Assembly (NCBI GenBank): GCA_000165345.1
Contig: CM000434.1
Location: 416,001 to 480,000, forward strand
Direction of reading: 5' to 3'
Length of the DNA stretch: 64,000 bases
In this document: positions 32,271-54,313 of the stretch, piece by piece
Layout: each line of letters begins with the position of its first letter
Numbering within the stretch: position 1 is the first letter of the stretch
Position numbers and translations under genes: made by a program
The notes under the pieces: model-generated
Seen by the model: only the letters and a program-made list of their open reading frames with translations
What the model was told of the DNA's origin: nothing
The model's database searches: none

Positions 32271-32281
32271 ATTCCCCACTT
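32271..32281 (+). promoter_or_regulatory. ATTCCCCACTT element upstream of RNR R1 (149 nt before the ATG); member of a recurring TCCCCAC(T) promoter motif
   Basis: Same core in sense orientation at 20705..20715 (ACTCCCCACTT, 144 nt upstream of the kinesin ATG at 20859), 26696..26704 (minus-strand ATTCCCCAC, 158 nt upstream of the kinesin ATG at 26538) and 54367..54377 (CGTCCCCACTT, 211 nt upstream of the METTL16 ATG). A second CCCCAC lies at 32251..32256. Each copy sits 10-25 nt from a GC box (GGCGGGA; poly-C/CGC at 20683..20696; ACCGCG at 26673..26678; CGTCGCGG at 54400..54407). Confidence 0.35.
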
Positions 32282-32429
32282 AATTGTGTGGAAATGTGCT
32301 CGTAACGCCCCACCGAAGTGAATGGAAAATTTGTTTTAGTATTTTTTGTCGCATGCTCGAACACTAAATAAGGTTAAAACAACTAATTCGTAATATTAAT
32401 TGGGTCTTAAATTCCAATAATCATAAATA

Positions 32430-38166: not shown

Positions 38167-41100
38167 TTAATCGAATAATGAAGTATCATATCTCTTTCTC
38201 TTTTTTACTTCTGGCATTATCTCTTCAAATAAAAAACCTTCAATTACTTCGCTATTTTCTGAATATAAATTGACAAAATTTACCCCATTTGATGAAATTC
38301 CCAAAAATTGTATAAGTAACTTGACAACTTCAAGAAAATAATTTCTTGAATAAATAACTTTTTTATCTAAAGAAAAAGTAAAACATTTGTTGAAAATATT
38401 AATAAAATTGAACTCCAAGGATACTTTTATTTCACCTATCTTATGAACAACTGAGAAGGGGATATTAGTTTGTAGAAAACTCCCTAATTGCCTTTCTAAT
38501 TGCTTTATAACGCTTAAAGGAATGCATTGCGCAAACTCACTTTTAAGTTGTGATTTTTTATGTTCTGAGCTGACTATTTCGTATTTATAGAATATAATAA
38601 CTAAACCGAACAAACTTGAGAATAGTTTGCCATCCACTGGAAGACCTATTTCATCAACAAAATTAAATATGTCAAGAATATTATTCAAAATCTTTAATAT
38701 AATATTTAATGATATATTAAAGTGCCCAGACTCAGAAATGTCATTCCAGTTGATAATGCCAATATCGATTAAATTGGTATTAATTCCTTTCTTATTATTG
38801 TTTTTAATTTGATCATTTATTAGATACTCAAACTTTTCAACTGCTGGTAGTTGCCTAATTGATTTAAACTCATTTATCAATAAGTCAATTAAGTGATCTA
38901 ATATTTGATTTAAATTCACTAAATAATAATATGAGATATCACTTAAATTAGCAAAATTATCACATTTTGTATCTAATAATGAATTATAAATTGGGAAAAA
39001 AATAGGAGAGCTATAGCGGTCATCCAATGTTAGATCTTTGTTGAAACATGCGAAAATCTCTGTTTCAGAATTTATGCAGTTATACAATATATTGTTCATA
39101 TCGAAAGTAATCTCATTCTTGATCACCAAAATTAACATTGAAGGAACTAACATAAACTTATATTTATAACATAAATACTTTCTGTTTCTTCTTAGATACA
39201 AACCATTATAATGATCATTAATCAATTTATTAGTTTCAAGCCCCCAAAAGTTCATGACTTTCTTATTCAATAAAAGGAACTTTTGATAATATAAAAGCAG
39301 ATTTGTTGAATTTTCTCCTAAAAGAATATAGTTAATCATTGAGAAATAGGAAAATGATTGGTTTATAATAGGCGTAAATATACTTTGTGTTAACTTATTT
39401 TTTTTTAAAGTTGTTTGGCTAGAATTTAACTCATCAAAAATTAATTCATTTATCATTTCTGTAATGCTATAATTATTAATCGAATGAGAGTTGATTTTAA
39501 TTAAATCCTTAAACTCTGCAATTTCATTGTCATTGATTGGAAATGATTTATTTGTGATAAAAAGGACAATAAATTGCTTAATTGATTGAAGATTAATGAA
39601 TGATTTATAAAAATAAAATAGTATACCGGCAAGATTTGTACTTAAATTTGAATATGAAATATTAATATTTTTTAAAATATCATTTATTTGGCTCTTCATA
39701 AATCCAATCTTGTTGTATAATGGGTTCTTCTCGGGAAATTTATTCAAATAAATATTGAAAAATAATATATAAATAGTTATTAATCTTGAATTAAAAAACT
39801 TAGTTATCTCAATACCAGAATGTTTTTCATAGTTCTTGAAAAATGTATCTATTTCATCTGTATTTCCACTTAAAATCAAATAACAAATAATTAATGATTC
39901 GATTGAAAGGTAATATGAATTTTTTAATTCAGTTATTGCAGCTTCAACATGATTATGGTTGTCTACAGGGCTGTATATAAATGAAGAAATCATTATTTTT
40001 GCAAGCTTGAATCTTGCTTTTGATTCTAATAATGATGGAAGCCAAACACAATTTTGGATTTGAGAGAAAGAATTTGTATAAATACAGTACCACTTTTTTT
40101 CTTCATTGGAAATTTTTGGTATAAATTCTGTAAACAAAGTTTTTCTTAATTTTGATATTACTTGAATTAAATTGATAAGTAAATCTTTTTCGAAACTTCT
40201 TGGAAATATTTCATTATTGAAGTTATGTTTAGATAGAACTTTAACTTTATTCAAGTATATTAACAAATATTTAGCGTTAGTTTTTCCATAAACGCTTTTA
40301 ATATTAATAAGCCTAATTATTAGTTGATCAAATGAAGCTGAAAGTATATTATTTACAATCTGAGAATAGGGTATTTGTATATTTCTTTCAGGCTTAAGGA
40401 AAAATTTGATTTCGCACTGAAGTAAGTAAATTAATTGGGCAACCATTCTTTTTATGAATACAGGAAAATTTCTTTCTAGTCTTTGAAAAGTATCATAATC
40501 ATCTAGTTCACAGATAATTTGTTTCAATACATTATTGCAGCATGTAACTATATTTAAATCATAATTATCCATTAAAAAAAGATTCATATTTAGTAATTTC
40601 AAATATTTGAACAATGTGCTAAGGCTAAGTTGTATATTATTATTTCCTGTTACTCCAAATCTACCTGGACTCCATAAGCTCGATGATCTATCCATATATG
40701 AGACAGGTATGCAGGAAATGAAACAATCTTTTATAAATCTGAAAGGAATAAATTTTTGAATATTATTTTTCCAATTAATTTTAAGAAAAATATTATCTCC
40801 ATTAGGAAAAGAAATCAAGTTTTCTACCTTGCTTCTAATTTGAACTAAAGTTTCATCCAAAAATTCATTGCTTAAATATTTAATATCCAAATTCGATTTC
40901 ATAAACCTATCCAAAAGAATTGTATAGTAATATTTAGAGTATAAAAGTGGCTCTAATGAAGCAATAACTAAATTATTTTCTTTTATGTAGATTGAAATTT
41001 CGTCAAACAATAGATCTTCAAAACCATGTTTTTCCACCTCAAATTCATCCATTTCAAAGTTTGAAAATGAAGGGGAAAGAACCATAATATTGTCATAGTA

Positions 41101-44100
41101 ATTTAATATTTGATCAGAAACTTGCGAATTATAGAGGATTGAAGAAAAATCATCTTGAAGAAGAGTTTTCCCAGTAGTATCAAAATAAAATTTTTCACTA
41201 TTCATTATCTCACTTAAGGTTTCCATAAATAATGGATATATTAATGGAGATGAAATAATATTCCAGATATTGCCGGCATCTGCTTCTTTTAAGTTATTTA
41301 AATTGAAAAATAGTCTTTCAACTAGTCCTATGATTGATGTATAAAACTTTACTTTACTATCTGAGTATTGTCTTTCCGTTAAAGAAGTACAGTTAATTAA
41401 TGTTTGAAAGATATTGCAAGAGAGAATAATTAATGGTGAATATGGAGAAATATATTCTAAAATTCCAGATGAACGAAATTCATTATTTTTTATTAAATTA
41501 ATTATCCAATTAATGAATAAATTCTTGAAATTTGTTTCATTTGAAACTAATATTTTTAGATCAAATAAATAATCATATATTTGAGATTGATTATAAATTG
41601 CCATCTTATTAAACGGCATCGAGGGTAATGGGCAAACTGGAAGTCCATAAAGAAGCTGAAATTGTATTCCTAGCAATTCTAAATATTCAGTTTCTTGTTC
41701 AGGAAATAAACAGTATTTTTCTAACTCAATCTTTTCATATAATTTTTTCATATTCAAATTGCAAAATAGTGCTGAATAATTTTTGACTACTTTTCTACAA
41801 TTATGGTATAATAAATTCCAATTTTTTAAGTGACTATTTGTTTTATATACTTGAACAAAAGTATAAATTTCCTTGAACCAATTTTCAATAACTGAAAGAT
41901 TAGAAAATAAGCCGTACTTTATTGTTATAGTTAATAGTAGCACTTTTGTGCTCAAGGTTGAATTAAAAAATTTATCAAATTGTTCATTTATCATTACCTC
42001 ATTAATGTCATAAATGCCTTCAAAATCAAAAGTCTGTTCCTCAATAATTGGAAATAAAATGCAATAATTGTTCAAAATATGTCTTTTAAATGTATCCTCT
42101 TCGGATTGTTTAGTATAAACTTTTGTTTCTTTTTGCTCTTTATTTTCATCCTTAACAAATTCAAATGAAAACTCCAAATATGTAAGATATCTTATTAGGT
42201 TAATTATTGAATTTGAAGATATTTCTTCTATAGTGCTTGAATATTTGAAAAAATCGAATAAAGCTATTAGAAGATTAATTAAGTTTTTCATGACTAATAT
42301 ATTCAATTTATTTGCTGATAAATTATTCATAAAAACCTTATGAATACATGAGATATTTATTAATATAGTTTCCATCGTTAGCTTATGCAATGGTTTTTTA
42401 GATAATTTACTTATATTTATCAAATTTAATTCATAAATCTCTGTAATTTTTATTATTAATTTTGTAATATTCGAAATTATAGAATTTACTATAATGTTGT
42501 TAAAATATAAATATTGTATATCTTTATTAATAATAAGTACCAAATTTTTTAACAATGAAATTAAAAATTCGCAAAAGTTTTCAGATAGATCAAATCGTTC
42601 AAATTTTTTAATCCATTGATTAATATCTAATATTATGCTATTTGTATGCTGAAGAAATTTATGATCAATTATTTCATTTCTCAAATTGCAATTTATTTTT
42701 TTCATCTGCATGTATTCAAGATAATTATTGTCTAAAAATACTGAATAATTTGCAATAATATCATAAGTGGGAAATTCATGGCTGCATTTTGAATTATAAA
42801 TGCTAATCCAGTTTGAAAATTTTTCTTTAATTGTCCTGATACTATTATCTGAAAGAAGCTTTAGAGCAAACCCAGTTGAAATAATTCCACCTTGATTATT
42901 TTGATCTAAATCTGAAAATAGCTTTAATATCAAATTAATATTTCCAGCGTATCCGCTTATTTTCATTAGATCCTCTTTTAAAAAAAATACAAGTTCATCT
43001 TCCAAGTAAATTTTTACTATAGGTATTTCAATCACTTTAAATATTATTAATAATTTTTTTGTTGAGAGATCGATTTCAGAAATTAAATAATTATTTAATT
43101 TTTCTTTTATTATAGTGAAAGTGTCCAGTAAATACAAAAAATTTGATTTTAACTCATTATAAAAAGATATTTGTATGTTACTTTTAGTATTTGAAATAAT
43201 ATTATTGGTGACGAAAATAAAAATAATTAAAGTTTTCATAATACTGTAAAATAGCAATAAAATTTCTTTCTGAATTTGTTTGTTAACTTGAAAAAGTAAA
43301 TAATAAAGTTTGCTTGTAAGTTTTGAGCAAAGGTAGTTTTTATCAAAAATCCTTGATTTGTGATTTGAACATTGAAATCTAATCGTTGGTTTATCATTAT
43401 ATCTATGAAATTTTGTAAAATCAACTATATTTGTTATTATTCCCATTGTATATTTGAATAACTTTTCTGTAATACTAAATAACAAACTGCTAATTGTTTC
43501 AGAAGTAATTATTATATCTTCATTCTTTGTTGAGAATATAAACTTCTGTATTTTGTTTAATAAATTATTAGAATTTAATAAAAATTCATCGACTGATGTT
43601 AGAAGGTTACCTGAAAGAAATGAAAACCTATTATCAACTTCAAAAATATGTTGCTCATCAAAATTCATAAGAAATTTGTGCCTTAAATTATCAAATAATT
43701 GTTTTATATCTTGAAAACTAACATATTTTGTCTCTAGCATAGCTGAATATTGCTCTGTTATAAAGTTTGTTTCATGAACAATCATTTCATCAAATTGTTC
43801 TATAGAAGGAAAATTGTTATTTAAATTTAAACTAAAAATATTATCGCACTTCATCTCTTCTTTTTTTAAAACACTTAAAATAAGATTGTAGCAATAATAC
43901 GGGATTGTTTGGATCCAAATCTTATATTGCTTATCATTATATTTAGGAAATGTTACAGTATTACTTGAAATATCAATAATTATCTTTTTTAATGGATTGT
44001 CTAATTCCAATAATAAATCACGTTCAATAACTTCTTTATTCAAATTAACATTTGGTAAATCATTATTAACGTTTTTGCTTCTTGTTCTTCTATCAGAATT

Positions 44101-45270
44101 CACCTTAAATTCGTTTTTGTAATTTGATAAATTTAATTTAGCACTTAAATCATTTATGTAGTCTTCTAGAAGTTGGAAAGGCTCAAAGCTTATATATAAG
44201 TTATTTATCCCAAATAAAGAAATAATTTGTTTAAAGTATGAAAAAATATTGTTTGAATCATCTTGAATTGACTTAGAAATGTTTCCTATTGATTTTATGT
44301 AATTTTCTTCAAAGTTGGTATTTGTTATATATCTTTCAATTTCAAGACACTTTTTTTCGTATTTCTTACAACATTCTATTCTTAATAATATATTTTCGAA
44401 AATCTTATTATATTTCTCTTGAAGTGCCAATTTAGGAGATGTGCCTTTAACTTTTAGTTCTCTATAGATTTTGATAAGTGAATACTTTATCTCCTTAATT
44501 GTCTCGGTGTAATTACTGTGATCTGATAATTCAAAGTTATCTTCATCTAAAATCATGGAGCATAATTTCTGCAACTTAAGTTCTTTTAACATAAGATCTC
44601 CAAATATATGGTCATTATTCTTATTTGCTGAAATTGAATTCCTTATATTAAATAAATTCCAAGAACTGAAAAAATCAAATAAATATTCACAATTCACTAT
44701 AATTTTTTTATTAAATATTTCTTCTTCCGAATAATCACCCAAAATCCTCTCCAGAACAATACTACATTCCAAAAAATCGCCTTGATAGAATAAAACTTTG
44801 CAAAGTAATTTAAATAGAACATTTTCTTCTTCAAGGCTTGAATTCATTTTTTCCAATTTATTTTCTCGTTGGCAAATAAGAAACTCTATACAAAATCTAC
44901 AAAGTTTTAAAACATTTGTGGTTCTTCCATCTAATGCTTCAATAAAACTATTTCTTTTTAAAACATTATTTTCTCCAGAAAATGATATAGAATTAAATAT
45001 TCTATAATATCTATCCAAAATTTCAACCCCAATGTTTGCAATGGTTTTGCAGGTATTTAGCCTTGCATTACCATCATAAATATCATCTTTGAATAATGAA
45101 AAAAGCTTTTTTGATTCATTTTCGAAAGACAGTAATATGTCATAGTTACATAATTGTTCAATATTCATAGCAAATAGTCTATTAAAAAGTATAAATTGAA
45201 TTTCATGTATTCCCGCATCAACTTGAAAAGTAACATTTATTATTAACAATCCTTCTAAAGAAAGATGCAA
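38167..45270 (-). CDS. Very large hypothetical protein (2367 aa), helical-repeat-like, no recognisable catalytic domain
   Basis: Single 7.1-kb uninterrupted ORF. Composition like neighbouring genes. Long stretches of predicted amphipathic helices; no kinase/ATPase/Sec7/RING motifs seen. Confidence 0.6.
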   Translation of the reverse strand: MHLSLEGLLIINVTFQVDAGIHEIQFILFNRLFAMNIEQLCNYDILLSFENESKKLFSLFKDDIYDGNARLNTCKTIANIGVEILDRYYRIFNSISFSGENNVLKRNSFIEALDGRTTNVLKLCRFCIEFLICQRENKLEKMNSSLEEENVLFKLLCKVLFYQGDFLECSIVLERILGDYSEEEIFNKKIIVNCEYLFDFFSSWNLFNIRNSISANKNNDHIFGDLMLKELKLQKLCSMILDEDNFELSDHSNYTETIKEIKYSLIKIYRELKVKGTSPKLALQEKYNKIFENILLRIECCKKYEKKCLEIERYITNTNFEENYIKSIGNISKSIQDDSNNIFSYFKQIISLFGINNLYISFEPFQLLEDYINDLSAKLNLSNYKNEFKVNSDRRTRSKNVNNDLPNVNLNKEVIERDLLLELDNPLKKIIIDISSNTVTFPKYNDKQYKIWIQTIPYYCYNLILSVLKKEEMKCDNIFSLNLNNNFPSIEQFDEMIVHETNFITEQYSAMLETKYVSFQDIKQLFDNLRHKFLMNFDEQHIFEVDNRFSFLSGNLLTSVDEFLLNSNNLLNKIQKFIFSTKNEDIIITSETISSLLFSITEKLFKYTMGIITNIVDFTKFHRYNDKPTIRFQCSNHKSRIFDKNYLCSKLTSKLYYLLFQVNKQIQKEILLLFYSIMKTLIIFIFVTNNIISNTKSNIQISFYNELKSNFLYLLDTFTIIKEKLNNYLISEIDLSTKKLLIIFKVIEIPIVKIYLEDELVFFLKEDLMKISGYAGNINLILKLFSDLDQNNQGGIISTGFALKLLSDNSIRTIKEKFSNWISIYNSKCSHEFPTYDIIANYSVFLDNNYLEYMQMKKINCNLRNEIIDHKFLQHTNSIILDINQWIKKFERFDLSENFCEFLISLLKNLVLIINKDIQYLYFNNIIVNSIISNITKLIIKITEIYELNLINISKLSKKPLHKLTMETILINISCIHKVFMNNLSANKLNILVMKNLINLLIALFDFFKYSSTIEEISSNSIINLIRYLTYLEFSFEFVKDENKEQKETKVYTKQSEEDTFKRHILNNYCILFPIIEEQTFDFEGIYDINEVMINEQFDKFFNSTLSTKVLLLTITIKYGLFSNLSVIENWFKEIYTFVQVYKTNSHLKNWNLLYHNCRKVVKNYSALFCNLNMKKLYEKIELEKYCLFPEQETEYLELLGIQFQLLYGLPVCPLPSMPFNKMAIYNQSQIYDYLFDLKILVSNETNFKNLFINWIINLIKNNEFRSSGILEYISPYSPLIILSCNIFQTLINCTSLTERQYSDSKVKFYTSIIGLVERLFFNLNNLKEADAGNIWNIISSPLIYPLFMETLSEIMNSEKFYFDTTGKTLLQDDFSSILYNSQVSDQILNYYDNIMVLSPSFSNFEMDEFEVEKHGFEDLLFDEISIYIKENNLVIASLEPLLYSKYYYTILLDRFMKSNLDIKYLSNEFLDETLVQIRSKVENLISFPNGDNIFLKINWKNNIQKFIPFRFIKDCFISCIPVSYMDRSSSLWSPGRFGVTGNNNIQLSLSTLFKYLKLLNMNLFLMDNYDLNIVTCCNNVLKQIICELDDYDTFQRLERNFPVFIKRMVAQLIYLLQCEIKFFLKPERNIQIPYSQIVNNILSASFDQLIIRLINIKSVYGKTNAKYLLIYLNKVKVLSKHNFNNEIFPRSFEKDLLINLIQVISKLRKTLFTEFIPKISNEEKKWYCIYTNSFSQIQNCVWLPSLLESKARFKLAKIMISSFIYSPVDNHNHVEAAITELKNSYYLSIESLIICYLILSGNTDEIDTFFKNYEKHSGIEITKFFNSRLITIYILFFNIYLNKFPEKNPLYNKIGFMKSQINDILKNINISYSNLSTNLAGILFYFYKSFINLQSIKQFIVLFITNKSFPINDNEIAEFKDLIKINSHSINNYSITEMINELIFDELNSSQTTLKKNKLTQSIFTPIINQSFSYFSMINYILLGENSTNLLLYYQKFLLLNKKVMNFWGLETNKLINDHYNGLYLRRNRKYLCYKYKFMLVPSMLILVIKNEITFDMNNILYNCINSETEIFACFNKDLTLDDRYSSPIFFPIYNSLLDTKCDNFANLSDISYYYLVNLNQILDHLIDLLINEFKSIRQLPAVEKFEYLINDQIKNNNKKGINTNLIDIGIINWNDISESGHFNISLNIILKILNNILDIFNFVDEIGLPVDGKLFSSLFGLVIIFYKYEIVSSEHKKSQLKSEFAQCIPLSVIKQLERQLGSFLQTNIPFSVVHKIGEIKVSLEFNFINIFNKCFTFSLDKKVIYSRNYFLEVVKLLIQFLGISSNGVNFVNLYSENSEVIEGFLFEEIMPEVKKRKRYDTSLFD

Positions 45271-45485: not shown

Positions 45486-46106
45486 ATGAAACATACAAAA
45501 TATCTACTATTGTTGCTTACTCCTACATTCTTAGTATATTGTTCAAATATAACTCCCAAATTGGAAAATGATACTTTTATAGACGCTTTAGACAAGGATT
45601 TGTCTGAGAATGAAAAAGAAAAAAAAATGACAGTTTGTTTTGAACTAACACAAAAGGAATTCATAGAGAAACGTGATGTTTATCAGAAGATAGCTGCTTC
45701 AATAAAAGATAAAGAGTCAATAACTTCTAATGATGCGCTTAGAGCGCTTTTCCATCAGAACCTCATTACTTGCTACTTCAACTCAAATATAAAAGATATA
45801 AATTCTGTCATTAATAGAAATATACCGAAAGAAGGGATCGCGAAGATGTTTACAGTTAGTGAAAACACCCCACTAAGATTTTCGTCCAATCAATTAAAGA
45901 TTCTTGAACGAGTTATCTCAATGAGTACAAAAAATACAGGCAAACAAATTTCTGGAGGAATTGCAAAACAATTAAGTGGGTTTTATGGGCATTTATATTT
46001 CATTTTTGCGCTACTTCTAATTGGAGTTTCATTTTATTTTGCTCTAGATCGTCTGAATAAAAGCATTAAAGGCGCTAAAGGAAAGATAACTAAAAAGAAC
46101 AAATAA
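45486..46106 (+). CDS. Hypothetical small type-I membrane/secreted protein (206 aa)
   Basis: N-terminal signal peptide MKHTKYLLLLLTPTFLVYCSNITP and a single C-terminal TM (HLYFIFALLLIGVSFYFAL) followed by a short Lys-rich cytoplasmic tail. Confidence 0.4.
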   Translation: MKHTKYLLLLLTPTFLVYCSNITPKLENDTFIDALDKDLSENEKEKKMTVCFELTQKEFIEKRDVYQKIAASIKDKESITSNDALRALFHQNLITCYFNSNIKDINSVINRNIPKEGIAKMFTVSENTPLRFSSNQLKILERVISMSTKNTGKQISGGIAKQLSGFYGHLYFIFALLLIGVSFYFALDRLNKSIKGAKGKITKKNK

Positions 46107-46139: not shown

Positions 46140-49100
46140 CTATTGCCATTGTATGGGTTGGGATTCATTAGCTGAGTTGATTTTACTATTATCAATTTCC
46201 CAGGTTCTTCCTCTTCTAACTTGTTCTCCTTTTGAAAAGGTGATTTTGGATTTTCCTTCGATTTGTTTGTTTCCTTCAGGATTTTTTCTTGCAATAAGTG
46301 CAATAGGATCAATTACTTGGTATAATTCTTTTGACCTTGTTGAGTTTAAGTCAAAAAACTGTACAGAGGTTTTCACTGGAATGAACCAAGGAAAGCTATT
46401 CTCTATTGTAATCATTGATTCTGTAGTTCGTATTCCAAAAAGTGATTTAATGCAAAATGATTCATCGCATATGTATTCACATTTATCGATTTTTATAGAA
46501 CCTCCATTTTCGGAAATAAAAAGTGGAATATTGGATTTTTCTGAAGATGTGTTTGTTGTATTTTTTCTTGAAATCAAATAATTAACTTGAAGATTTTCAA
46601 TATATATTTTTGATGAATCTTGCGACACTAAAGTTGTCGGATAGGAAATTACAGCGCTTTTAGCAATAAAAACACCACCATCGTCAGTAAACACATCTCC
46701 CTTAATAATTGTTTTATCACAATTCAGTATTGAAAATTCATCTACCATAATTCCACTATTTACTTCTAATAAATATCTTTCAGAAACATTCATGAGTGAA
46801 TTTCCTTGTAGTACAACTACTTTATTAATATTTACTTGATACTGCTGAATTGCATTATTTTCCCTTTTAATATTTATTATTGAACCGGATGTTAATATTA
46901 CGCTTTCGATTGAAATGCTTCCTTCGAAGACAAGCATTTCAGAAAATGTGTCAATTGTAAGATTGCCATTAATTAGAAGATTGATTGGAATTTTATTTCT
47001 AAACAGAAATAAATCCGTAAATTCATTTCCTTTTTCTCCATTTACCACTGTTAAAGACTTCGTCGACATACCCAAGCTCCCCTGATTAATATAAATTTGT
47101 TCTACTTCAAGATAGCTTTTCATAATTAAAACAACATTTCCATTTTTCACAATTAATTTCCCGTTAATTATAAATATGCCATTAGAAATGAAAAAACTCT
47201 TATAATCGTTAGATTTTACTTCAAAGCTTGGATTTACACTATTAATTATTAAATTACCTTTATTTATAAAAAAGCTAGATTTTCTTGTTGAAATAAATGA
47301 TTTCCCAACTTCCATACTTTCTCCTAATAGAAAACTCCCTTCAATTAAATCTACATGCTCATTTACCTTCAAACTACCATTAGCAATGAACATATTACTT
47401 GAATTTGATACAAGTATTGAACCAAGAATACAGTGTTGATATCTCTCACAATTATTATTTGAATTATTATTGCTATTTGAGTCATTTGAATGACCTAAAA
47501 TTAGGATTTCTGATCCGTCACTAATGACAGCATTTTCAAAAATACTAACTTTGCCCATGGACAAAAACTCAGATCCATCATTTATTTCAATTGAGCCTTG
47601 CACAAATACTTCTCCATAAATTGTAGCAGCTGATGCTGAAACAACTTGGAAAAATCCTGCCATTTTATCATTTATTTCTGTATATTGTGTACTGCTTATA
47701 CCAAAAATACTTGAAATATTATAGCTATTATGATAATATTCTATATTTTCAATGCTTTGGTTCAGTATTTTAAGAGAGTCAGCGTAAAATGTAGACGAAT
47801 CTCTTATTGATGCAATGTGTAGCATTACATTCCCACCTATTCGAATTTTAGAACCGGAATGTAACAATAAAATACTATTAATTTTTAATTCTCCCTTTTT
47901 CACGATAACAACTGATGATCTAATTAAAGATAGCCTGCTTGTAAAGATAGATGAATTCATCATATGAAGGCTTCCGGAATCCCTAATATGTATGCCTAGC
48001 CCATGCGTAGTGTTAGTTTTCAAATTACCGCAAGTACCAAAAACAAGGCCTGCATCAGAAATAACGACTTCGCCAGCACTAATATCGCCTCTTACCCATA
48101 ATTTACCACTATTTCCGACATATATCTTTCTCCCAGACCATAGAGAGCCCAAGTTCTGTTCTTTTGTTTCACTTTCATTGGATTTGGAACTATCTTGAAA
48201 TTGATTTTGAACAATATTATTATCAAATGTATTTAAACAACTGTTAGAGGCATGAAAAAGTTTAACTCTAGTGATAGAAAAAGGGTTCCAGCTATCTGAT
48301 CCACTATTATTCTGATATACATCAGAAAATAAATATAGAACTCCAATAAATAGATTAGATGACAGATCCACCTGTAAATCTGCGGTGTAGACATTTTTTC
48401 CAACAATCAATTTCCCAATGACTATTAAGTTAGAAAATGGAAGTATCATTGAGCCTCTTACAGTTAAACCTTTCCTAATAATACACCTTCTTTTTGAGTG
48501 TATTGGTTGAGTTTTACCAACTGACAAATTTTGAGCTTCAAGTGCATCAAACGAAGTCAGAGTATTTAGCTGACCATTTGCAACAATAAGATCTCCACAT
48601 ATTAAGACATCGCCATCAACAATAACTGAGACACAATTTGAATCTTCGAGAACCAAATCTTCATTTTCATAATTCAATATTATATCCCCGGAATCGGAAT
48701 AGGAATATTCGTTTGAATTATATGAATATGCAATTGGAGAAGGATCGAAAGCATTTTCACAATAACTTCTTTCTTTCATATTTTCAAAACCTTTCAATCT
48801 TTTTTCGTTGCAATATTGATTCTTTATACCAGAAGTAGTTGGGCAGCTAAAGCCAATATTTCTGATTTGATCTGCTAATAGATCATACATTTGATTTACT
48901 TGATTAATATAAACCTTTTCTTTTGTATCATTGATTAATTTACGCAATTTTTCATGCTCCTCATTGAATTTAATCTCATATTTATTCATTAATTTTCTTT
49001 TTACTAAATTCTGAATTTCATTTTGATGAATCCTTTCTGATACTGTTATCGGATTGCTAAATTCATAATCAGGAATCCATGGTAGAGAATTTGCAACAAT

Positions 49101-49175
49101 AATTAGAGATAGGCATTGGATCACAAATATAAAAATTACGCGTGGTAATAATATCAAGTTGTCCCTAAAATTCAT
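46140..49175 (-). CDS. Large secreted/membrane-anchored protein with beta-solenoid (parallel beta-helix-like) repeats (1011 aa)
   Basis: N-terminal signal/anchor MNFRDNLILLPRVIFIFVIQCLSLIIVANS. Most of the protein consists of roughly 20-25-residue degenerate repeats rich in G/N/S/I/V with the pattern NGxLxIxGxxxI / GSxxIxxS (e.g. NGSLKVNEHVDLIEGSFLLGESMEVGKSFIS...GNLIINSVNPSFEV...NGIFIINGKLIVKNGNVVLI...INGNLTIDTFSEMLVFEGSISIESVILTSGSIINI). This is typical of right-handed beta-helix/adhesin-like passengers. Confidence 0.6.
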   Translation of the reverse strand: MNFRDNLILLPRVIFIFVIQCLSLIIVANSLPWIPDYEFSNPITVSERIHQNEIQNLVKRKLMNKYEIKFNEEHEKLRKLINDTKEKVYINQVNQMYDLLADQIRNIGFSCPTTSGIKNQYCNEKRLKGFENMKERSYCENAFDPSPIAYSYNSNEYSYSDSGDIILNYENEDLVLEDSNCVSVIVDGDVLICGDLIVANGQLNTLTSFDALEAQNLSVGKTQPIHSKRRCIIRKGLTVRGSMILPFSNLIVIGKLIVGKNVYTADLQVDLSSNLFIGVLYLFSDVYQNNSGSDSWNPFSITRVKLFHASNSCLNTFDNNIVQNQFQDSSKSNESETKEQNLGSLWSGRKIYVGNSGKLWVRGDISAGEVVISDAGLVFGTCGNLKTNTTHGLGIHIRDSGSLHMMNSSIFTSRLSLIRSSVVIVKKGELKINSILLLHSGSKIRIGGNVMLHIASIRDSSTFYADSLKILNQSIENIEYYHNSYNISSIFGISSTQYTEINDKMAGFFQVVSASAATIYGEVFVQGSIEINDGSEFLSMGKVSIFENAVISDGSEILILGHSNDSNSNNNSNNNCERYQHCILGSILVSNSSNMFIANGSLKVNEHVDLIEGSFLLGESMEVGKSFISTRKSSFFINKGNLIINSVNPSFEVKSNDYKSFFISNGIFIINGKLIVKNGNVVLIMKSYLEVEQIYINQGSLGMSTKSLTVVNGEKGNEFTDLFLFRNKIPINLLINGNLTIDTFSEMLVFEGSISIESVILTSGSIINIKRENNAIQQYQVNINKVVVLQGNSLMNVSERYLLEVNSGIMVDEFSILNCDKTIIKGDVFTDDGGVFIAKSAVISYPTTLVSQDSSKIYIENLQVNYLISRKNTTNTSSEKSNIPLFISENGGSIKIDKCEYICDESFCIKSLFGIRTTESMITIENSFPWFIPVKTSVQFFDLNSTRSKELYQVIDPIALIARKNPEGNKQIEGKSKITFSKGEQVRRGRTWEIDNSKINSANESQPIQWQ

Positions 49176-49236
49176 AAAGTTTTGTTTAATTTTTTTTTCG
49201 AAGTTTCAATTATGTTGCAGGATTGCATTGTCGGCG

Positions 49237-49252
49237 CTTAATTGTGTGGAAA
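49237..49252 (+). repeat. 16-nt exact repeat CTTAATTGTGTGGAAA shared with 32279..32294 (RNR promoter); both copies follow a GC box
   Basis: Copy A 32279..32294 lies immediately downstream of ATTCCCCACTT in the RNR promoter. Copy B 49237..49252 follows GTCGGCGC about 60 nt upstream of the minus-strand beta-solenoid gene (start 49175) and just past the stop of the 1676-aa gene. An exact 16-mer with G/C content recurring in two promoters of a 64-kb AT-rich window is unlikely by chance. Confidence 0.4.
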
Positions 49253-49282
49253 GAAAAAGAATAAAATGATTAATTATAATTA

Positions 49283-52200
49283 TCAAGCTAAAGCGTCTAT
49301 ACATATACATTTATGTATCATTGACTCAAATTTTTCAGATAGTGCTCTTATATTCACATTATTTGAAGATTTAATCAAATACCTGACTTTTGCTACGAAG
49401 TAAATTGGTAGTTCAATTTGTTTATCTGAGATTATAGCTGTAATAAACCTCAGAGCTTCATCGATAAAACTAAAGCTAAGTAAATTTTCGATTACATTGA
49501 TAAAAATGTGTATATGTTGACCAATTGATGTTGAGCAACTTCTAATTATCTTCATCAAGTACTCTGGGTCTTTATACATTTTTTTTAATTGAATAGGTAG
49601 GATTGAAGTATAAGCGCTATCCGATGGATTATCACTGTTCATTGCACCGTAGATGCGTTCATTTGCCAATAATGCAATGTGAACGCCCTGGAGAAAATAA
49701 GGAGAGTGATTTATACGGCTTATTATTGAACTCCAATAATTAATATTAATAGCAAAGGCCAAATTGTCAGATCCTTTCAGTATTTGTATATTTCTAAGCT
49801 TAGCATTTTGAAGGAGTATTTCTTCGAATACTGTAATTTTCGGATCTGGTGAGCTATATGATAACTTTTTTTTTTTCTGTCCACTAGTTTGCGTTAGGAA
49901 ATCATTTTTATATTCAACTAAAGAATTAAAATATATTGTATTGTATGATAAAAAAAAGCAATAAGTGAACATCCAAAATCCAATAGTTTTATAAATATTA
50001 TTTGGAATAAATTGAGTTAAAGGGTTCGAAAAAATTATCCATTTATTATTTGAAAGATTTGAAGAATAATCTTTAAGATAATTGTTCATAAACTTATTTG
50101 CAACTTGGGTTAGTCTGTGTGAAGTCTCAAAGTAGCCATTGATTATTAAGTAGTAATTTAGCTCTACAATAGATATGCTTAACAAACTAGCTAAGTTTTT
50201 TGAACAAAACAGATGCGGATTAAATATTGTTTTGAAGTAAATTCCACTACGTTCTAAGTAATTCTTGTATCTTTCAATGTTTTTGCAAAAATTAATGAAA
50301 TGTTGATAAGTTTCTGCTAAAGTTAAATCTGAAGTTAATAATTTATTTATTCCGACAAAATACCACTTTAAGTAAGAAATATATTCAATAGACGGTAAAA
50401 ATGTGACCTTATGGTGAATTCCTTGAGAATAATTATTTTGATAGATTATTTTTGGAAGTTCAATACCGAAAAAGAGATTTGGTATACAAATAGGTTTATC
50501 AGAATATTGCCGATCATTAAATTGGTTTATTAGTGTAGCGCTTGAATAAGTAATGCATGTGTTTAATGAAGAGATAATTATGTTTAAAGGCTCGGAATCC
50601 GCATTAATGACTTCTTTTTCAAAGCTGAAGTATTGGATTATACCACTCAAATTCTCAAGCGCCTCATTTATGATTTTAAATGAATCGAATTCTTCATAAC
50701 GAGAATTATTCATTAAAATAAATTCTATCCAGCTCTCCGGAAATAAAGCATTTGTACAATTATTATATGAACACAAATCGCAATATTTATCCAGTGCATT
50801 TAAATATGCTAAAGTGACTATTTCTTGATACCTCTCTCCTCTTTTCCATTCATTCATTAGAAACTTATAAATTGATCGAACTATGAAAGCACCTTTTGAG
50901 TAAAATCTTAAAAAAGCTTCCGAATTAGTGTTATTAAGGAATTTAGTTTTTTTCCAGAATATCTGAATTAACAATGAATAAAATTCTTCAAGTTCAGTTG
51001 CAAAAACTGATGCCGAAATTGTAGAAAATTTCAATTCACTTTTATTTTCAACTTTGTTTGACAAATAATGCTTGATCCAAAGGACCATCAGAAACAGCAT
51101 TTTCTCATGCTTAGAATTAAAGCATGACAATGATTTATTTAGAAGCTTAACTATTGAATGATCTTCGATATTATTTCCGCTCAAATATATATATTGTATT
51201 AGATATTTTTTATGAATCTCATTAATTAATATTTTCTGGTTTGGAGAGCAACTGGAGAAACATGCGCATATCAGATTAATTGATATTTCTAATAAATTAA
51301 AGTATATTGAATTATAGTATATTTTTATTCTTGGTTTACTAAACAATCTAAATATTAATGAAATTAAATAAATAACTTTGATTTCGTTGCAAGAAAACCC
51401 TTCAAGTATGTTTTTTTTATTTTGATCTTCTTTTGGTTTAATTAATTCAATGATTTCATCAACTAACTTAATATCACTGATCAATTGTTTTAATATTGAA
51501 AGTGATGAATCTGAAGTATGACTTTTATAGGGAAGCAAACGAATGATATATGAAATGTAGCGCGTGTAGTTGTGTTCAAAACATCCATTGATAATTTGTT
51601 GTTCAAGGTAATCGTAAACTAAGTCAACCAGCTGAAAATTACATTCTTGAGAAACTTTTTTAGAACAAAAGTCATTAAGAAATAGCTCCCAGAAAATTTT
51701 ATTTGAAAAAATATATAGAGAAAGATCATTGGCTCCAGAATCGATAAAAACATCTGAAGAAAAAAATTTGTATATTGAATTATAATATAAATAAACCCTA
51801 TAAACTTGATCAACAGACGGAACAAAATGATGTTCATTGATCCTCCCACAATTATGAGTAATAATATTCAACTTTCCTGTTACCATATATTTGCCTAGAT
51901 TCAAAAATGAATAATCTTCTGAAAAAAACTGTAATATATTTTCAACTCCACAGCTATATGTTAAATTTATATTTCTAATTAAATTTTTCCAGGAAAAATA
52001 CTTGAAAATATTTCTTGTAATAATTGAATAGATATTCAAAATTAAAATAGTATTTTTTACCTTCATTATTTCTAAATTAGAAGCTTTAAAATATTTATTA
52101 GTTTCTTTATCCACGGAATTTAATACTAAGCACTTAACATCACCGTTATGATCTGCTTTAATTGATTTTCCAACGAAATTTAAAACTTCATCATTTGATG

Positions 52201-54313
52201 TTGGTGAAAGATTGACAAAGAATTGGATTATGTTCTGTATTAATGATTTAAGTTCATCCGTTGTGAAATTCTGTGTTAATATATCATAATAGATCAAGTT
52301 AAAATTATTTATATAATTAGATGCTGGGCTGAAAATTTCATTTAGCGATGTATAATGGTTAATAGTATCCTCTAATTTATTCATAAAAGTAAGCTTCTTA
52401 GATAGTACTTCTATAAGCTCCATAATTAAAGCGCACACTATAATTTTATTATTTATTCCATCTGAGATGTAAAAATCGAATAAATCGAATAAATGTTTGT
52501 CCAATCTTGTTTTATTGCTATTAAAAATAATTCTCAATACCAAATACTTTAATTTTAGATAATTTCTTATTATTTCAAGAGATATGTATAGATATGAATT
52601 ACAATTGTCGGAAATTGATGATGGCTTATCCAACTCTTGTCTGGATAAAGAACTTATAACAGAAACTGATATAGGAGATAATAAAAAAGTTTTATCTTTA
52701 TCTGAAAAAATTCGAATACAGTAATTGCCAATATTTTTAAAGTAATTAATTAAGAGATGAAGAGGCGTGATTATGAATATTATCTTTTCTATATCATATT
52801 TGCATTTTATACGAGTCTCAAACTCTTTATTTATTAGTGCTTTCCCATCTAGATATATGTAAACATTTTTCATTAAATTTACCAAGTCCTCAAATTTAGA
52901 AGTTGAGTATAAAATATTCAACAGCTCACATTGTTTCTTTTCGCAAACAATCTTTGAAATAATGCTTTCAAGGAATCTCAAATATCTATTAAAAGCCATA
53001 GCAACTACAGTGTTTGATTTACACTCACCAATAACTCTACAGAGAAGAAAATTTATGATTTCTTCAAAGTTTGATAGTTTTTCTATATTGGAAATTAACT
53101 TGCATTTTAAATCACTAATATCAAGTGGATTTTTAAAAGAATTTTGTAGTCCCTGACTCCAAACTAACGTAGAATTGCCTAGATTGGCATTTGATGGGAA
53201 ATTGTTCGAAGTGTGATCATTTAAGCAAATTTTGTGAATCTCACAAATTGGAAGGCATAAATCATAATCATTCATAATATTTCCAGGAAAAGCTGCCCTG
53301 GCAATATAAATTTCTGATTTATTACAATAGACCTGAGGATATAACAATTTTTTTTTATCTCCGCTCTGTTGAAGATCTAAATTAAGATAACTTGAAAGTT
53401 GCAAATTAATGTTTTCGGAATTATAATCACAAAAGTTCAATATCTTATAGAGATAAACTGTACTGTTAATCAACAAAACAAAATGATCTGTGCCTTCTAG
53501 GAGGGAAATTACAGGGTGGGTATCTATATTAATTCCAATTTCAATATCTGTTCTTCTATCAATTATATTACTACAAACATTATTTTCTGCAGGATTAAAT
53601 CTGATCAATATAAGACATAATTCTTTATTTTTTTCAGAAAATGTAATTAAATAAATATTTTCTGTGTTTTTGTTGGTTACTGTAGTTTTCACTATTTGAA
53701 ATGCAGAAATTTCGAGAGATTCTGTAAAGATATTTTTTTTAATAAATAGTGGTAAAAACTCGTCTTTCAAGATTGTTGAATTTGAAATTATCCCAAAAAC
53801 CCCCAATTCATTGCATGCTAAAAATAGAGATTTAGTTGCTTGAGTAAGTAATTTCAAATTTGAAAGCTCCGTTTTGAAACTTCTCGTTGTCAAAATATTA
53901 AAACCATACTCGCATTCCCCAAATACAGATATCTCAATGATATATAACTGTCCTTCATTAGAGCAAACTGAAATCGTGAGAATTGATGTGCATCTATCGA
54001 AAAATAAACTACAATTACAATTTGGATTGAATGGTAAATTTATATTAAATAATGATTTAATATTTGGTGCTCTACATTTATCTTGAGCTCTGTCTCTAGA
54101 AAATATTATAGTGGAGACATTGTAAACACAGATTGTATCGTTATTTATTACTGAGGCAATATGTAAATCATCGAACAACTTTAATTCATTACCAAAAAAT
54201 TTGTCAAAATCAGAATACGTATCTGTACAATTGTTTCTTTCATTTGTTAATTCTGCATAAAAATTATTAGAGAAAGCAAAATAGCCAATGATCTGCTCAA
54301 CATTTAGAAGCAT
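49283..54313 (-). CDS. Very large hypothetical protein (1676 aa), N-terminal beta-rich region followed by a helical solenoid
   Basis: Uninterrupted 5-kb ORF. Clathrin heavy chain has the same length but was excluded because its conserved N-terminal motifs are absent. No family assigned. Confidence 0.6.
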   Translation of the reverse strand: MLLNVEQIIGYFAFSNNFYAELTNERNNCTDTYSDFDKFFGNELKLFDDLHIASVINNDTICVYNVSTIIFSRDRAQDKCRAPNIKSLFNINLPFNPNCNCSLFFDRCTSILTISVCSNEGQLYIIEISVFGECEYGFNILTTRSFKTELSNLKLLTQATKSLFLACNELGVFGIISNSTILKDEFLPLFIKKNIFTESLEISAFQIVKTTVTNKNTENIYLITFSEKNKELCLILIRFNPAENNVCSNIIDRRTDIEIGINIDTHPVISLLEGTDHFVLLINSTVYLYKILNFCDYNSENINLQLSSYLNLDLQQSGDKKKLLYPQVYCNKSEIYIARAAFPGNIMNDYDLCLPICEIHKICLNDHTSNNFPSNANLGNSTLVWSQGLQNSFKNPLDISDLKCKLISNIEKLSNFEEIINFLLCRVIGECKSNTVVAMAFNRYLRFLESIISKIVCEKKQCELLNILYSTSKFEDLVNLMKNVYIYLDGKALINKEFETRIKCKYDIEKIIFIITPLHLLINYFKNIGNYCIRIFSDKDKTFLLSPISVSVISSLSRQELDKPSSISDNCNSYLYISLEIIRNYLKLKYLVLRIIFNSNKTRLDKHLFDLFDFYISDGINNKIIVCALIMELIEVLSKKLTFMNKLEDTINHYTSLNEIFSPASNYINNFNLIYYDILTQNFTTDELKSLIQNIIQFFVNLSPTSNDEVLNFVGKSIKADHNGDVKCLVLNSVDKETNKYFKASNLEIMKVKNTILILNIYSIITRNIFKYFSWKNLIRNINLTYSCGVENILQFFSEDYSFLNLGKYMVTGKLNIITHNCGRINEHHFVPSVDQVYRVYLYYNSIYKFFSSDVFIDSGANDLSLYIFSNKIFWELFLNDFCSKKVSQECNFQLVDLVYDYLEQQIINGCFEHNYTRYISYIIRLLPYKSHTSDSSLSILKQLISDIKLVDEIIELIKPKEDQNKKNILEGFSCNEIKVIYLISLIFRLFSKPRIKIYYNSIYFNLLEISINLICACFSSCSPNQKILINEIHKKYLIQYIYLSGNNIEDHSIVKLLNKSLSCFNSKHEKMLFLMVLWIKHYLSNKVENKSELKFSTISASVFATELEEFYSLLIQIFWKKTKFLNNTNSEAFLRFYSKGAFIVRSIYKFLMNEWKRGERYQEIVTLAYLNALDKYCDLCSYNNCTNALFPESWIEFILMNNSRYEEFDSFKIINEALENLSGIIQYFSFEKEVINADSEPLNIIISSLNTCITYSSATLINQFNDRQYSDKPICIPNLFFGIELPKIIYQNNYSQGIHHKVTFLPSIEYISYLKWYFVGINKLLTSDLTLAETYQHFINFCKNIERYKNYLERSGIYFKTIFNPHLFCSKNLASLLSISIVELNYYLIINGYFETSHRLTQVANKFMNNYLKDYSSNLSNNKWIIFSNPLTQFIPNNIYKTIGFWMFTYCFFLSYNTIYFNSLVEYKNDFLTQTSGQKKKKLSYSSPDPKITVFEEILLQNAKLRNIQILKGSDNLAFAININYWSSIISRINHSPYFLQGVHIALLANERIYGAMNSDNPSDSAYTSILPIQLKKMYKDPEYLMKIIRSCSTSIGQHIHIFINVIENLLSFSFIDEALRFITAIISDKQIELPIYFVAKVRYLIKSSNNVNIRALSEKFESMIHKCICIDALA

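What the first reader, a model, noticed from the sequence alone, without database searches (positions are those of the whole stretch)
46140..49175. 1011-aa secreted protein built from degenerate beta-solenoid repeats (adhesin/beta-helix-like)
A signal peptide/anchor followed by roughly 900 aa of G/N/S/I/V-rich pseudo-repeats of 20-25 residues (NGxLxI...GSxxI) is the hallmark of right-handed parallel beta-helix proteins such as bacterial adhesins and pectate-lyase-like folds. In a parasite genome such a protein is a candidate surface/secreted adhesin or a laterally acquired gene. It is flanked by the shared GC-box/16-mer promoter element and by a convergently arranged small signal-peptide/TM protein (45486..46106).
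Basis: inference. Interest (0 to 1): 0.6.

Follow-up and report, generated by a model that had tools for sequence, protein, structure and literature searches.

The report
Secreted beta-helix protein of Cryptosporidium
This is a real, single-copy Cryptosporidium parvum gene for a secreted rod-shaped beta-helix protein; the family is old and uncharacterised, is shared with gregarines and chromerid algae, shows no sign of bacterial origin, and its function is still untested.

Summary
The ORF at 46140..49175 lies on the minus strand and encodes 1011 aa. It is identical to C. parvum Iowa II EAK89859.1 / Q5CX94, "hypothetical protein", probably cgd6_1990.

- **Secretion:** it has a signal-peptide-like N-terminus that is conserved in orthologues, and no other membrane segment.
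- **Sequence families:** no Pfam or NCBIfam family matches.
- **Distribution:** a profile search of 1.84 billion proteins finds relatives only in Cryptosporidium, Rhytidocystis, Cardiosporidium, Selenidium, Siedleckia, Chromera and two unnamed contigs. No bacterial relative turned up. GC content matches the surrounding genome, and gene order is conserved in C. muris. Lateral acquisition is therefore not supported.

The fold and secretory route are well supported. An adhesin or structural role is inference only. The residues conserved across the whole family are mostly Gly and Cys, which argues weakly against an enzyme. This is a new sequence family within a known fold, of moderate interest.

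The parts
46140..49175 (-). Complete CDS of the 1011-aa protein (stop codon at 46140-46142). Identical to C. parvum Iowa II EAK89859.1 / Q5CX94; probably cgd6_1990.
   Evidence: The gene id is inferred from gene order: cgd6_1950 is RNR and cgd6_1960 is the 809-aa GalNAc-T. The C. meleagridis tag cmbei_6001990 agrees.
49086..49175 (-). Residues 1-30, a predicted cleavable signal peptide: MNFRDNLILLPR, then VIFIFVIQCLSLIIV, then ANS|LPW.
   Evidence: Highest hydropathy in the protein. The pattern is conserved in 10 of 11 orthologues, and most carry a Pro in the hydrophobic region. This is a heuristic call; SignalP was not run.
48756..49058 (-). Residues 40-140, an N-terminal helical region (long helices 40-84 and 90-128) that contains invariant C111 and C122.
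   Evidence: AF2 model 2, pLDDT 56-81. Invariant residues.
48306..48698 (-). Residues 160-290, family-defining conserved block 1: the first coils of the beta-helix (C181..DGDVxxCGDLxVxNGQLNxLTSFDA..C231xIRxG..VRGSxxxPFSNL..G..VGK..D..Q.DLSS).
   Evidence: Best-matching stretch in every remote homologue. 85-88% mean identity within the genus. pLDDT 64-93 in model 2.
48156..48305 (-). Residues 291-340, a poorly conserved low-confidence insert or loop. In Rhytidocystis and Cardiosporidium this position carries long low-complexity insertions.
47766..48149 (-). Residues 343-470, conserved block 2: seven coils including GSLWSG..VGN.GKLWVRGD, TCGNLKTNTT.GLGI and the conserved sequon N388.
   Evidence: pLDDT 80-93.
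46368..48149 (-). Residues 343-936, the main right-handed parallel beta-helix: about 25 coils of 17-22 residues, interrupted by short low-confidence loops at 477-503, 564-574, 648-657, 716-728 and 871-880.
46143..46361 (-). Residues 939-1011, a C-terminal tail predicted disordered yet conserved within the genus (D956 P957, KGEQ 982-985, W992, I1008, W1010; the protein ends ...PIQWQ).
   Evidence: pLDDT below 40. Invariant columns. 60-70% block identity.
49176..49282 (.). The 107-bp spacer between the stop of the upstream 1676-aa gene and this gene's ATG. It contains GGCGC (49233-49237) next to the 16-mer CTTAATTGTGTGGAAA (49237-49252).
45486..46106 (+). Convergent neighbour of 206 aa, with 33 bp between the two stop codons. 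It looks like a type I membrane protein with an N-terminal signal-like stretch, a C-terminal TM segment and a KKNK tail. Listed as context; nothing shows that it belongs to the same system.
   Evidence: Its C. muris orthologue is 42% identical, sits in the same convergent position and ends in KKQK.

Best explanation
The gene encodes a soluble secretory protein and is most likely a non-enzymatic extracellular rod.

**Proposed route and shape**
1. A cleavable signal peptide (probably cut after Ser30) takes the protein into the ER.
2. There it is N-glycosylated, probably at the genus-conserved sequons N388, N591 and N738, and disulfide-bonded through conserved cysteines.
3. After an N-terminal helical region, residues ~183-936 fold into one long right-handed, three-sided parallel beta-helix of roughly 30 coils of 17-22 residues. 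At the usual ~4.8 A rise per coil this gives a stiff rod of about 14-15 nm.
4. A conserved but disordered C-terminal tail follows.

**Proposed role (inference)**
- The rod acts as a binding or structural scaffold: an adhesin-like or matrix/wall component released from or displayed on the parasite.
- Its conserved N-proximal coils (residues 181-270 and 343-470) form the interaction surface.
- The conserved C-terminal tail acts as a short linear motif for a partner or for sorting.

**Origin**
The family is ancient and vertically inherited in apicomplexans and chromerids.

**Shown versus inferred**
- Shown: the ORF, conservation, distribution, predicted fold and secretory features.
- Inferred: signal-peptide cleavage, glycosylation, disulfides, and the whole binding/structural role.
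- My confidence is about 0.85 for 'secreted beta-helix' and about 0.45 for 'non-enzymatic adhesive/structural role'.
For: **Fold**
- AF2 with 11 orthologues: pLDDT about 90 for residues 340-935, pTM 0.64.
- AF2 with 12 more diverse sequences: mean pLDDT 73, with residues 171-320 also confident.
- Independent sequence support: a ~6.6-residue hydropathy period in the target and all homologues, absent from control proteins; enriched turn/strand motifs.

**Secretion**
- N-terminal hydrophobic peak with a conserved -3/-1 site and no other TM or GPI-like segment.
- 9 invariant Cys and 3 sequons conserved in 11 of 11 orthologues.
- Signal-like N-termini in the Chromera, Selenidium, Cardiosporidium and Rhytidocystis homologues.

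**Non-enzymatic**
- No CAZyme or PbH1 HMM matches, even at E up to 10.
- Family-wide invariant and near-invariant residues are mostly Gly and Cys: 12 of 19, plus N355, D195, D270, V258 and A367.
- His391 of the GH28-like 'HGLG' stretch is not conserved even within the genus.

**Vertical descent**
- Homologues occur only in Cryptosporidium, Rhytidocystis, Cardiosporidium, Selenidium, Siedleckia, Chromera and two unnamed contigs.
- Their conserved blocks are collinear with the target, and pairwise BLAST between them is significant in both directions.
- No bacterial relative was found.
- GC content is about 30%, like its surroundings.
- Gene order is conserved in C. muris.
Against: - No experimental or expression data for this gene could be found, so location, life-cycle stage and ligand are unknown.
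- The alignments behind the AF2 models are shallow (11-12 sequences), and AF2 is known to favour solenoids for repeat-like sequences.
- Foldseek against the PDB gave no significant hit (best E 0.096), although every listed hit was a beta-helix protein.
- The strong conservation of residues 181-270 and 343-470, which includes several invariant Asp, Arg, Lys and Asn within the genus, would also fit an active site.
- The gene is single-copy and 97% identical between C. parvum and C. hominis, unlike many parasite adhesins.
- The signal peptide was judged by eye, so a type II signal anchor is not excluded.
Confidence: 0.55

Rival explanations
1. It is a secreted carbohydrate-active enzyme of the pectin-lyase-like fold (polysaccharide lyase, glycoside hydrolase or epimerase). 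It would act on host mucus or glycocalyx, or on parasite wall glycans, with the active site in the highly conserved coils 181-270 and 343-470.
For: - The most conserved part of the protein holds genus-invariant D187, D189, D195, R234, R240, D266, D270, R362, E369, D374, K386, D399, R414 and R419.
- Glycosylation genes (GalNAc-T, STT3) lie nearby. Gene neighbourhood carries little weight in this genome.
Against: - No Pfam or NCBIfam CAZyme or PbH1 match, even at permissive thresholds.
- Of the charged residues, only D195 and D270 stay conserved across the whole family. The rest of the family-wide invariants are Gly, Cys and Asn.
- His391 in the GH28-like 'HGLG' is Ala or Asp in C. ryanae and C. 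muris.
- The top structural neighbours are non-enzymatic passengers and receptor-binding proteins.
Confidence: 0.15
2. The N-terminal hydrophobic segment is not cleaved and acts as a type II signal anchor. The beta-helix would then project as a ~15-nm stalk from the parasite plasma membrane or an organelle membrane: a membrane-tethered surface adhesin or spacer rather than a soluble protein.
For: - Counted from L7 to V27, the hydrophobic stretch is 21 residues, and AF2 models residues 6-30 as one helix.
- There is no C-terminal anchor that could otherwise tether the protein.
Against: - Arg/Lys12 splits the segment and leaves only about 15 hydrophobic residues. Most orthologues have a Pro in the middle. 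A small-residue -3/-1 site (A/T/V/I-x-S/C) directly before the invariant W33 is conserved.
- Two depositors annotate orthologues as 'signal peptide-containing'.
Confidence: 0.15
3. The gene descends from a bacterial autotransporter or two-partner-secretion type adhesin, acquired by lateral transfer.
For: - The best structural matches are bacterial passenger and TPS proteins and phage fibres.
- Beta-helix adhesins are far more common in bacteria than in eukaryotes (general knowledge).
- UniRef names the Chromera homologue 'Auto-transporter adhesin head GIN domain-containing'.
Against: - No bacterial protein reached E 1e-3 in a full profile search of 1.84 billion representatives.
- No relative was found in 185,579 prokaryotic genomes.
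- Sequence identity to the structural matches is only 7-15%.
- No autotransporter barrel, TPS domain or GIN Pfam hit.
- Host-like GC content.
- The gene is present across deep apicomplexan lineages and chromerids, with collinear blocks. Any transfer would therefore predate the apicomplexan-chromerid ancestor and cannot be detected.
Confidence: 0.05
4. The beta-helix is a modelling artefact. The protein would instead be a largely irregular or differently folded Ser/Asn/Ile-rich protein, of the kind common in AT-rich parasite genomes.
For: - Shallow alignments.
- Foldseek hits are not significant.
- Internal repeats are weak by profile self-alignment.
- In C. parvum alone, the 6.6-residue spectral peak does not pass the strict shuffle threshold.
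Against: - Two independent alignments give the same strand pattern with pLDDT of about 90.
- The periodicity recurs in homologues of very different composition, including the GC- and Ala-rich Rhytidocystis and Chromera proteins. It is absent from four control proteins of the same window.
- Family-wide conservation falls on Gly, Asn and Cys at turn positions.
Confidence: 0.05

Closest known systems
Passenger domains of bacterial type Va autotransporters (Bordetella Vag8 7akv_G, pertactin 2iou_H, E. coli UpaB, Ag43, H. influenzae Hap, H. pylori VacA p55)
   Different: - No C-terminal beta-barrel translocator; the C-terminus here is hydrophilic and disordered.
- 7-13% sequence identity and no HMM match.
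- A eukaryotic ER signal peptide, conserved N-glycosylation sequons and conserved cysteines.
- An extra N-terminal helical region.
- Found only in apicomplexans and chromerids.
Two-partner-secretion exoproteins (HxuA 4rt6_A, EtpA 8vba_A, HMW1 2odl_A)
   Different: No TPS secretion domain (no Pfam hit), no TpsB partner, and no detectable sequence relationship.
Pectin-lyase-like fold enzymes and phage tailspikes or receptor-binding proteins (phage Andhra gp15 8egr_A, K1 lyase, AlgG, PL6, GH28, GH110)
   Different: No PbH1, Beta_helix or Pectate_lyase HMM match. No family-wide conserved catalytic constellation. No trimerisation or particle-binding module.
DUF2807 / 'auto-transporter adhesin head GIN domain' (Pfam PF10988; e.g. 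7muc_AM, 3ljy_A, 3jx8_A)
   Different: Pfam PF10988 matched neither the target nor any homologue, including the Chromera protein. The protein here is three to four times longer.
Fungal beta-helix wall adhesins (Candida glabrata Awp1/Awp14 A-domains, 7o9q_B, 7qpk_B)
   Different: These are short A-domains on GPI-anchored Ser/Thr-rich stalks. The protein here has no stalk and no GPI signal, and there is no sequence similarity.

Membership tests
Right-handed parallel beta-helix (pectin-lyase-like) fold | Stacked coils of about 18-25 residues with three short strands per coil, forming a right-handed solenoid | tested here: met
Right-handed parallel beta-helix (pectin-lyase-like) fold | Match to sequence models of the superfamily (PbH1 repeats, Beta_helix, Pectate_lyase, NosD and similar) | tested here: not met
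   No such Pfam family at E up to 1 for the target, or at E up to 10 for all 12 members of A2. NCBIfam gave nothing. A PDB profile search gave nothing.
Polysaccharide lyases / glycoside hydrolases of the beta-helix fold | A conserved catalytic constellation (e.g. GH28 NTD / DD / GHG / RIK, or the Ca2+-binding Asp plus catalytic Arg/Lys of pectate lyases) | tested here: inconclusive
   No motif series in the right order. His391 of 'HGLG' is not conserved. Family-wide, only D195 and D270 are conserved acidic residues. Model coordinates could not be inspected, so a novel active site cannot be excluded.
Type Va autotransporter | C-terminal 12-stranded beta-barrel translocator domain | tested here: not met
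   No Autotransporter Pfam hit. Residues 939-1011 are hydrophilic and predicted disordered.
Two-partner secretion exoprotein | N-terminal TPS (haemagglutination activity) secretion domain | tested here: not met
   No Pfam hit. The N-terminus is a eukaryotic-type signal peptide followed by helices.
DUF2807 / GIN domain (PF10988) | Match to the PF10988 model | tested here: not met
Eukaryotic secretory-pathway protein | N-terminal signal peptide with a cleavage site; luminal features (conserved Cys, N-glycosylation sequons); no retention or TM signals | tested here: met
   Heuristic only. The hydropathy peak and the -3/-1 rule are conserved in orthologues. There are 9 invariant Cys, and sequons N388, N591 and N738 are conserved in 11 of 11. 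SignalP and DeepTMHMM were not available.
Unnamed apicomplexan/chromerid beta-helix family (this protein's own family) | Collinear conserved blocks: C..DGD..CGD..C block (residues 160-290), G..VxN..G..A...D..S...CG..TN.T.G.GI block (334-405), and the C-terminal GD.F.DD / QD..I.S / EN / T.ES.I block | tested here: met
   Profile hits with E from 1e-26 to 7e-4, with blocks in the same order. Reciprocal BLAST network. Alignments A2 and A3.

The most novel reading that the evidence does not exclude
This is the Cryptosporidium member of a previously undescribed, ancient extracellular beta-helix family. The common ancestor of apicomplexans and chromerids would have used it to build or attach a surface structure, such as a cell or cyst wall layer or an attachment apparatus. 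The family would have been retained in Cryptosporidium, gregarine-grade lineages, Rhytidocystis, Cardiosporidium and Chromera, and lost or diverged beyond recognition in coccidians and haemosporidians. In Cryptosporidium it would contribute to the epicellular attachment zone or to the oocyst or sporozoite surface.
Probability: 0.2. Interest if true: 0.6.

Novelty: new member of a known kind. Interest (0 to 1): 0.4.

Why it matters
Cryptosporidium has few defined surface or secreted structural proteins beyond mucins, TRAP-like proteins and COWPs, and there is no vaccine. This protein is conserved, single-copy, secreted and about 15 nm long. It has no host homologue and varies little (97% identity between C. 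parvum and C. hominis). It can now be tagged and knocked out with existing CRISPR tools.

Its distribution (Cryptosporidium, archigregarine, blastogregarine, Marosporida, Nephromycida, Chromera) also makes it a useful marker for what the ancestral apicomplexan cell surface carried. It is a rare eukaryotic example of a giant beta-helix outside fungi and plants. If it turns out to be an ordinary luminal or wall component, the value is mainly better annotation: a 'hypothetical protein' gains a fold, a family and a phyletic pattern.

Tried and rejected
**Searches that added nothing or were unavailable**
- Word-indexed homologue searches with the mixed alignment A2 and with the trimmed remote-only alignment A3. 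A2 returned only Cryptosporidium, and A3 returned nothing, not even its own members.
- The afdb50 Foldseek library was not available, so no structural search among eukaryotic predicted proteomes (Toxoplasma, Plasmodium) was possible.
- Foldseek against the PDB gave no significant match (best E 0.096). Only the ranking was informative.
- A PDB sequence-profile search gave only noise.

**Weak sequence evidence**
- Profile self-alignment for internal repeats gave only weak hits, E 0.009 or worse. The 'repeats' are structural and periodic rather than recognisable sequence copies.

**Literature**
- No text or held supplement mentions Q5CX94 or cgd6_1990.
- The hyperLOPIT paper (Guerin et al. 2023) is not held.
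- No paper in the library describes an apicomplexan beta-helix family.

**Ideas considered and set aside**
- A GH28-like reading of 'KTNTTHGLGIHIRDSG': the motif order is wrong and the His is not conserved.
- The shared 16-mer as a significant promoter element: the window holds 17 repeated 16-mers, against 6-18 in Markov-1 simulations.
- The NCBI name 'PPE domain-containing protein' for the C. felis orthologue: no PPE hit at E up to 10.
Full report
**Identity and observation.** The window is Cryptosporidium parvum chromosome 6. It is AT-rich (about 30% GC throughout) and densely packed with intronless ORFs. The ORF at 46140..49175 is on the minus strand and encodes 1011 aa. It is identical, residue for residue, to C. 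parvum Iowa II EAK89859.1 / UniProt Q5CX94, annotated 'hypothetical protein'. Ribonucleotide reductase (window 32430-34841) is cgd6_1950 and the 809-aa GalNAc-transferase (35005-37434) is cgd6_1960. By gene order, and from the C. meleagridis tag cmbei_6001990, the target is most probably cgd6_1990. That identifier is inferred, not verified.

**Secretory features.**
- The strongest hydrophobic stretch is at the N-terminus (19-residue Kyte-Doolittle mean 2.54). The next best (1.94, residues 181-199) is an Asp-containing beta-strand region. The last 25 residues average -1.62, so there is no second TM segment or GPI-like signal.
- The N-terminus reads MNFRDNLILLPR / VIFIFVIQCLSLIIV / ANS|LPW. The basic residue at position 12, a hydrophobic core of about 15 residues (with a Pro in most species) and small residues at -3/-1 before the invariant W33 recur in 10 of 11 orthologues. 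The C. ryanae gene model simply starts later.
- Nine cysteines are invariant in the genus. Three N-glycosylation sequons (N388, N591, N738) are conserved in all 11 sequences.
- The remote homologues also begin with signal-like sequences.
- I could not run SignalP, so cleavage versus signal anchor remains a judgement.

**Repeats.** The composition is S/I/N/L/V/G-rich.
- Hydropathy and BLOSUM autocorrelation peak at lags 6-7, 13-14, 20 and 26, with z up to 4.4.
- A ~6.6-residue period is the top spectral peak in the C. parvum protein, three other Cryptosporidium orthologues, and the Chromera, Rhytidocystis, Cardiosporidium and P0026 homologues. It is not the top peak in four control proteins from the same window. 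It passes a max-over-periods shuffle threshold in 6 of 8 proteins tested, but not in C. parvum itself or in Chromera.
- Profile self-alignment detects only weak internal similarity, E 0.009-0.03.
- The repeats are therefore structural periodicity: three strand-turn units of about 6.6 residues per coil of about 20. They are not recognisable sequence copies.

**Fold.**
- AlphaFold2 with the 11 orthologues gave mean pLDDT 64, but about 90 across residues 340-935, all short beta-strands, with pTM 0.64.
- A second run with a more diverse 12-sequence alignment that included the remote homologues raised the mean to 73. It also made residues 171-320 confident (64-93). Long helices appeared at 40-84 and 90-128, and residues 939-1011 stayed below 40.
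- Coil lengths read from the DSSP strings are 17-22 residues. That gives roughly 30 coils, or about 14-15 nm at the canonical 4.8 A rise (established knowledge of beta-helices).

| PDB match | Model 1 | Model 2 |
|---|---|---|

- Foldseek listed the same kinds of protein but without significance, best E 0.096.
- Sequence identities are 5-15%. No Pfam, NCBIfam or PDB sequence model matches. The similarity is of fold, not demonstrable homology.

**Family and origin.**
- The word-indexed search found one orthologue per Cryptosporidium species and no paralogues. Identity ranged from 92% (C. meleagridis) to 38% (C. muris, C. serpentis).
- C. parvum and C. hominis are 97% identical, 983 of 1011 residues.
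- An exhaustive HMMER profile search of 1.84 billion representatives found 11 proteins at E 1e-3 or better. Three were Cryptosporidium representatives. The other eight were non-Cryptosporidium proteins with E from 1.4e-26 to 7e-4.
- Those eight identify as two Rhytidocystis transcripts, Cardiosporidium cionae KAF8819538.1, Selenidium pygospionis, Chromera velia Cvel_26802, Siedleckia nematoides and two unnamed assembly contigs. One of the unnamed contigs, P0026, is closest to the Chromera protein (32% over about 400 aa, E 1e-52).
- The matches are collinear: block 160-290, block 334-405, then the C-terminal coils 520-880. They form a reciprocally significant BLAST network.
- No bacterial protein appeared. 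A scan of one genome from each of 185,579 prokaryotic species found no relative.
- In C. muris the locus is syntenic: BT1, methyltransferase, 1709-aa ORF, target, convergent 209-aa ORF, 2511-aa ORF.
- Together with the host-like GC content, this argues for an old, vertically inherited gene of apicomplexans and chromerids, and against recent lateral acquisition.
- Absence from coccidians and haemosporidians is only 'not detected at E 1e-3 with a Cryptosporidium-only profile'.

**Function.** Nothing experimental could be found.
- Conservation within the genus is highest in residues 181-270 and 361-420, at 81-88% block identity. It is appreciable in the disordered C-terminal tail, which carries invariant D956/P957, KGEQ, W992, I1008 and W1010.
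- Across the whole family the invariant and near-invariant positions are C181, C193, C231, C382, nine Gly, N355, D195, D270, V258 and A367. These are mainly turn and disulfide positions rather than a catalytic set.
- His391 of a GH28-like 'HGLG' is not conserved.
- I therefore favour a non-enzymatic rod that binds or builds something outside the cell. The conserved N-proximal coils would be the interaction surface, and the tail would be a linear motif.
- A carbohydrate-active enzyme is the main rival (about 0.15). A type II anchored stalk is a variant of the main explanation (about 0.15).

**Flanking elements.**
- The 206-aa gene at 45486..46106 is convergent, with 33 bp between the stop codons. 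It has a signal-like N-terminus, a TM segment at residues ~168-188 and a KKNK tail. Its C. muris orthologue is 42% identical, sits in the same position and ends in KKQK.
- GGCGC occurs 23 times in the window against 10.7 expected, with 0 of 100 shuffles reaching 23. About half the sites lie in short spacers just upstream of start codons, including 45413 and 49233. GGCG-core upstream motifs have been described in C. parvum (PMC1779779).
- The 16-mer CTTAATTGTGTGGAAA at 49237 recurs at 32279, about 150 bp upstream of the RNR start codon. Repeated 16-mers are no commoner in the window (17) than in Markov-1 simulations (6-18).

**Verdict.** The beta-solenoid and secretion parts of the interpretation are supported. 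The lateral-transfer option is not supported, and the adhesin role is open. This is a new, unnamed sequence family of a well-known fold, restricted to apicomplexans and chromerids. It is of moderate interest, mainly as a tractable, conserved extracellular protein of an important pathogen and as an evolutionary marker.

Noticed in passing
window 45486..46106 (+); L001:11163-11792 (-): The 206-aa convergent neighbour (probably cgd6_1980) looks like a type I membrane protein. Its short cytosolic tail ends in KKNK, and the C. muris orthologue (42% identical) ends in KKQK. This is a conserved KKxx dilysine motif of the kind used for ER retrieval. It has no Pfam family.
   Followed up: partly
window-wide; e.g. 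7861, 11657, 13358, 16813, 19903, 20049, 45413, 49233, 59767: GGCGC is about twice as frequent as expected (23 vs 10.7; 0 of 100 shuffles reach 23). About half of the sites lie in short intergenic spacers 25-150 bp upstream of start codons. This fits the GGCG-core (E2F-like) upstream motifs reported for C. parvum.
   Followed up: partly
window 32279-32294 and 49237-49252: The exact 16-mer CTTAATTGTGTGGAAA is shared between the upstream region of ribonucleotide reductase (cgd6_1950) and the spacer upstream of the beta-helix gene, in opposite orientation relative to the gene. Each copy sits beside a GGCG core. It is not statistically remarkable by the count of repeated 16-mers, but the position is suggestive of co-regulation.
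   Followed up: partly
window 38167..45270 (-) and 49283..54313 (-): The two giant flanking ORFs (2367 aa and 1676 aa) have no Pfam domain at all, yet they are conserved in position and size in C. muris (2511 aa and 1709 aa). They are large genus-conserved orphans.
   Followed up: no
P0007 (C. felis orthologue of the target): NCBI names this orthologue 'PPE domain-containing protein'. No PPE or other Pfam family matches it at E up to 10, so the name looks like an annotation error that could propagate.
   Followed up: partly
P0017 (CAD98490.1, 2470 aa) and P0008 (C. ryanae, 978 aa): An old C. parvum chromosome 6 gene model of 2470 aa clusters with this 1011-aa protein and presumably extends well beyond it. 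The C. ryanae model lacks the signal peptide and starts at the residue aligned with L31/W33, which is probably a mis-called start.
   Followed up: no
L002 (ENA metagenome scaffold ROVI19-1_SAMN06685590_METAG-scaffold_93504, 1580 bp): A 355-aa fragment, 40% identical to the N-terminal third of the target, sits on a metagenome scaffold. It probably comes from an unsequenced Cryptosporidium species or a close relative.
   Followed up: no
window 35005..37434 (+), 57447..59615 (-): A polypeptide GalNAc-transferase (cgd6_1960) and the oligosaccharyltransferase STT3 lie within 12 kb on either side of this heavily sequon-bearing secreted protein. This is probably coincidence in such a compact genome.
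   Followed up: no
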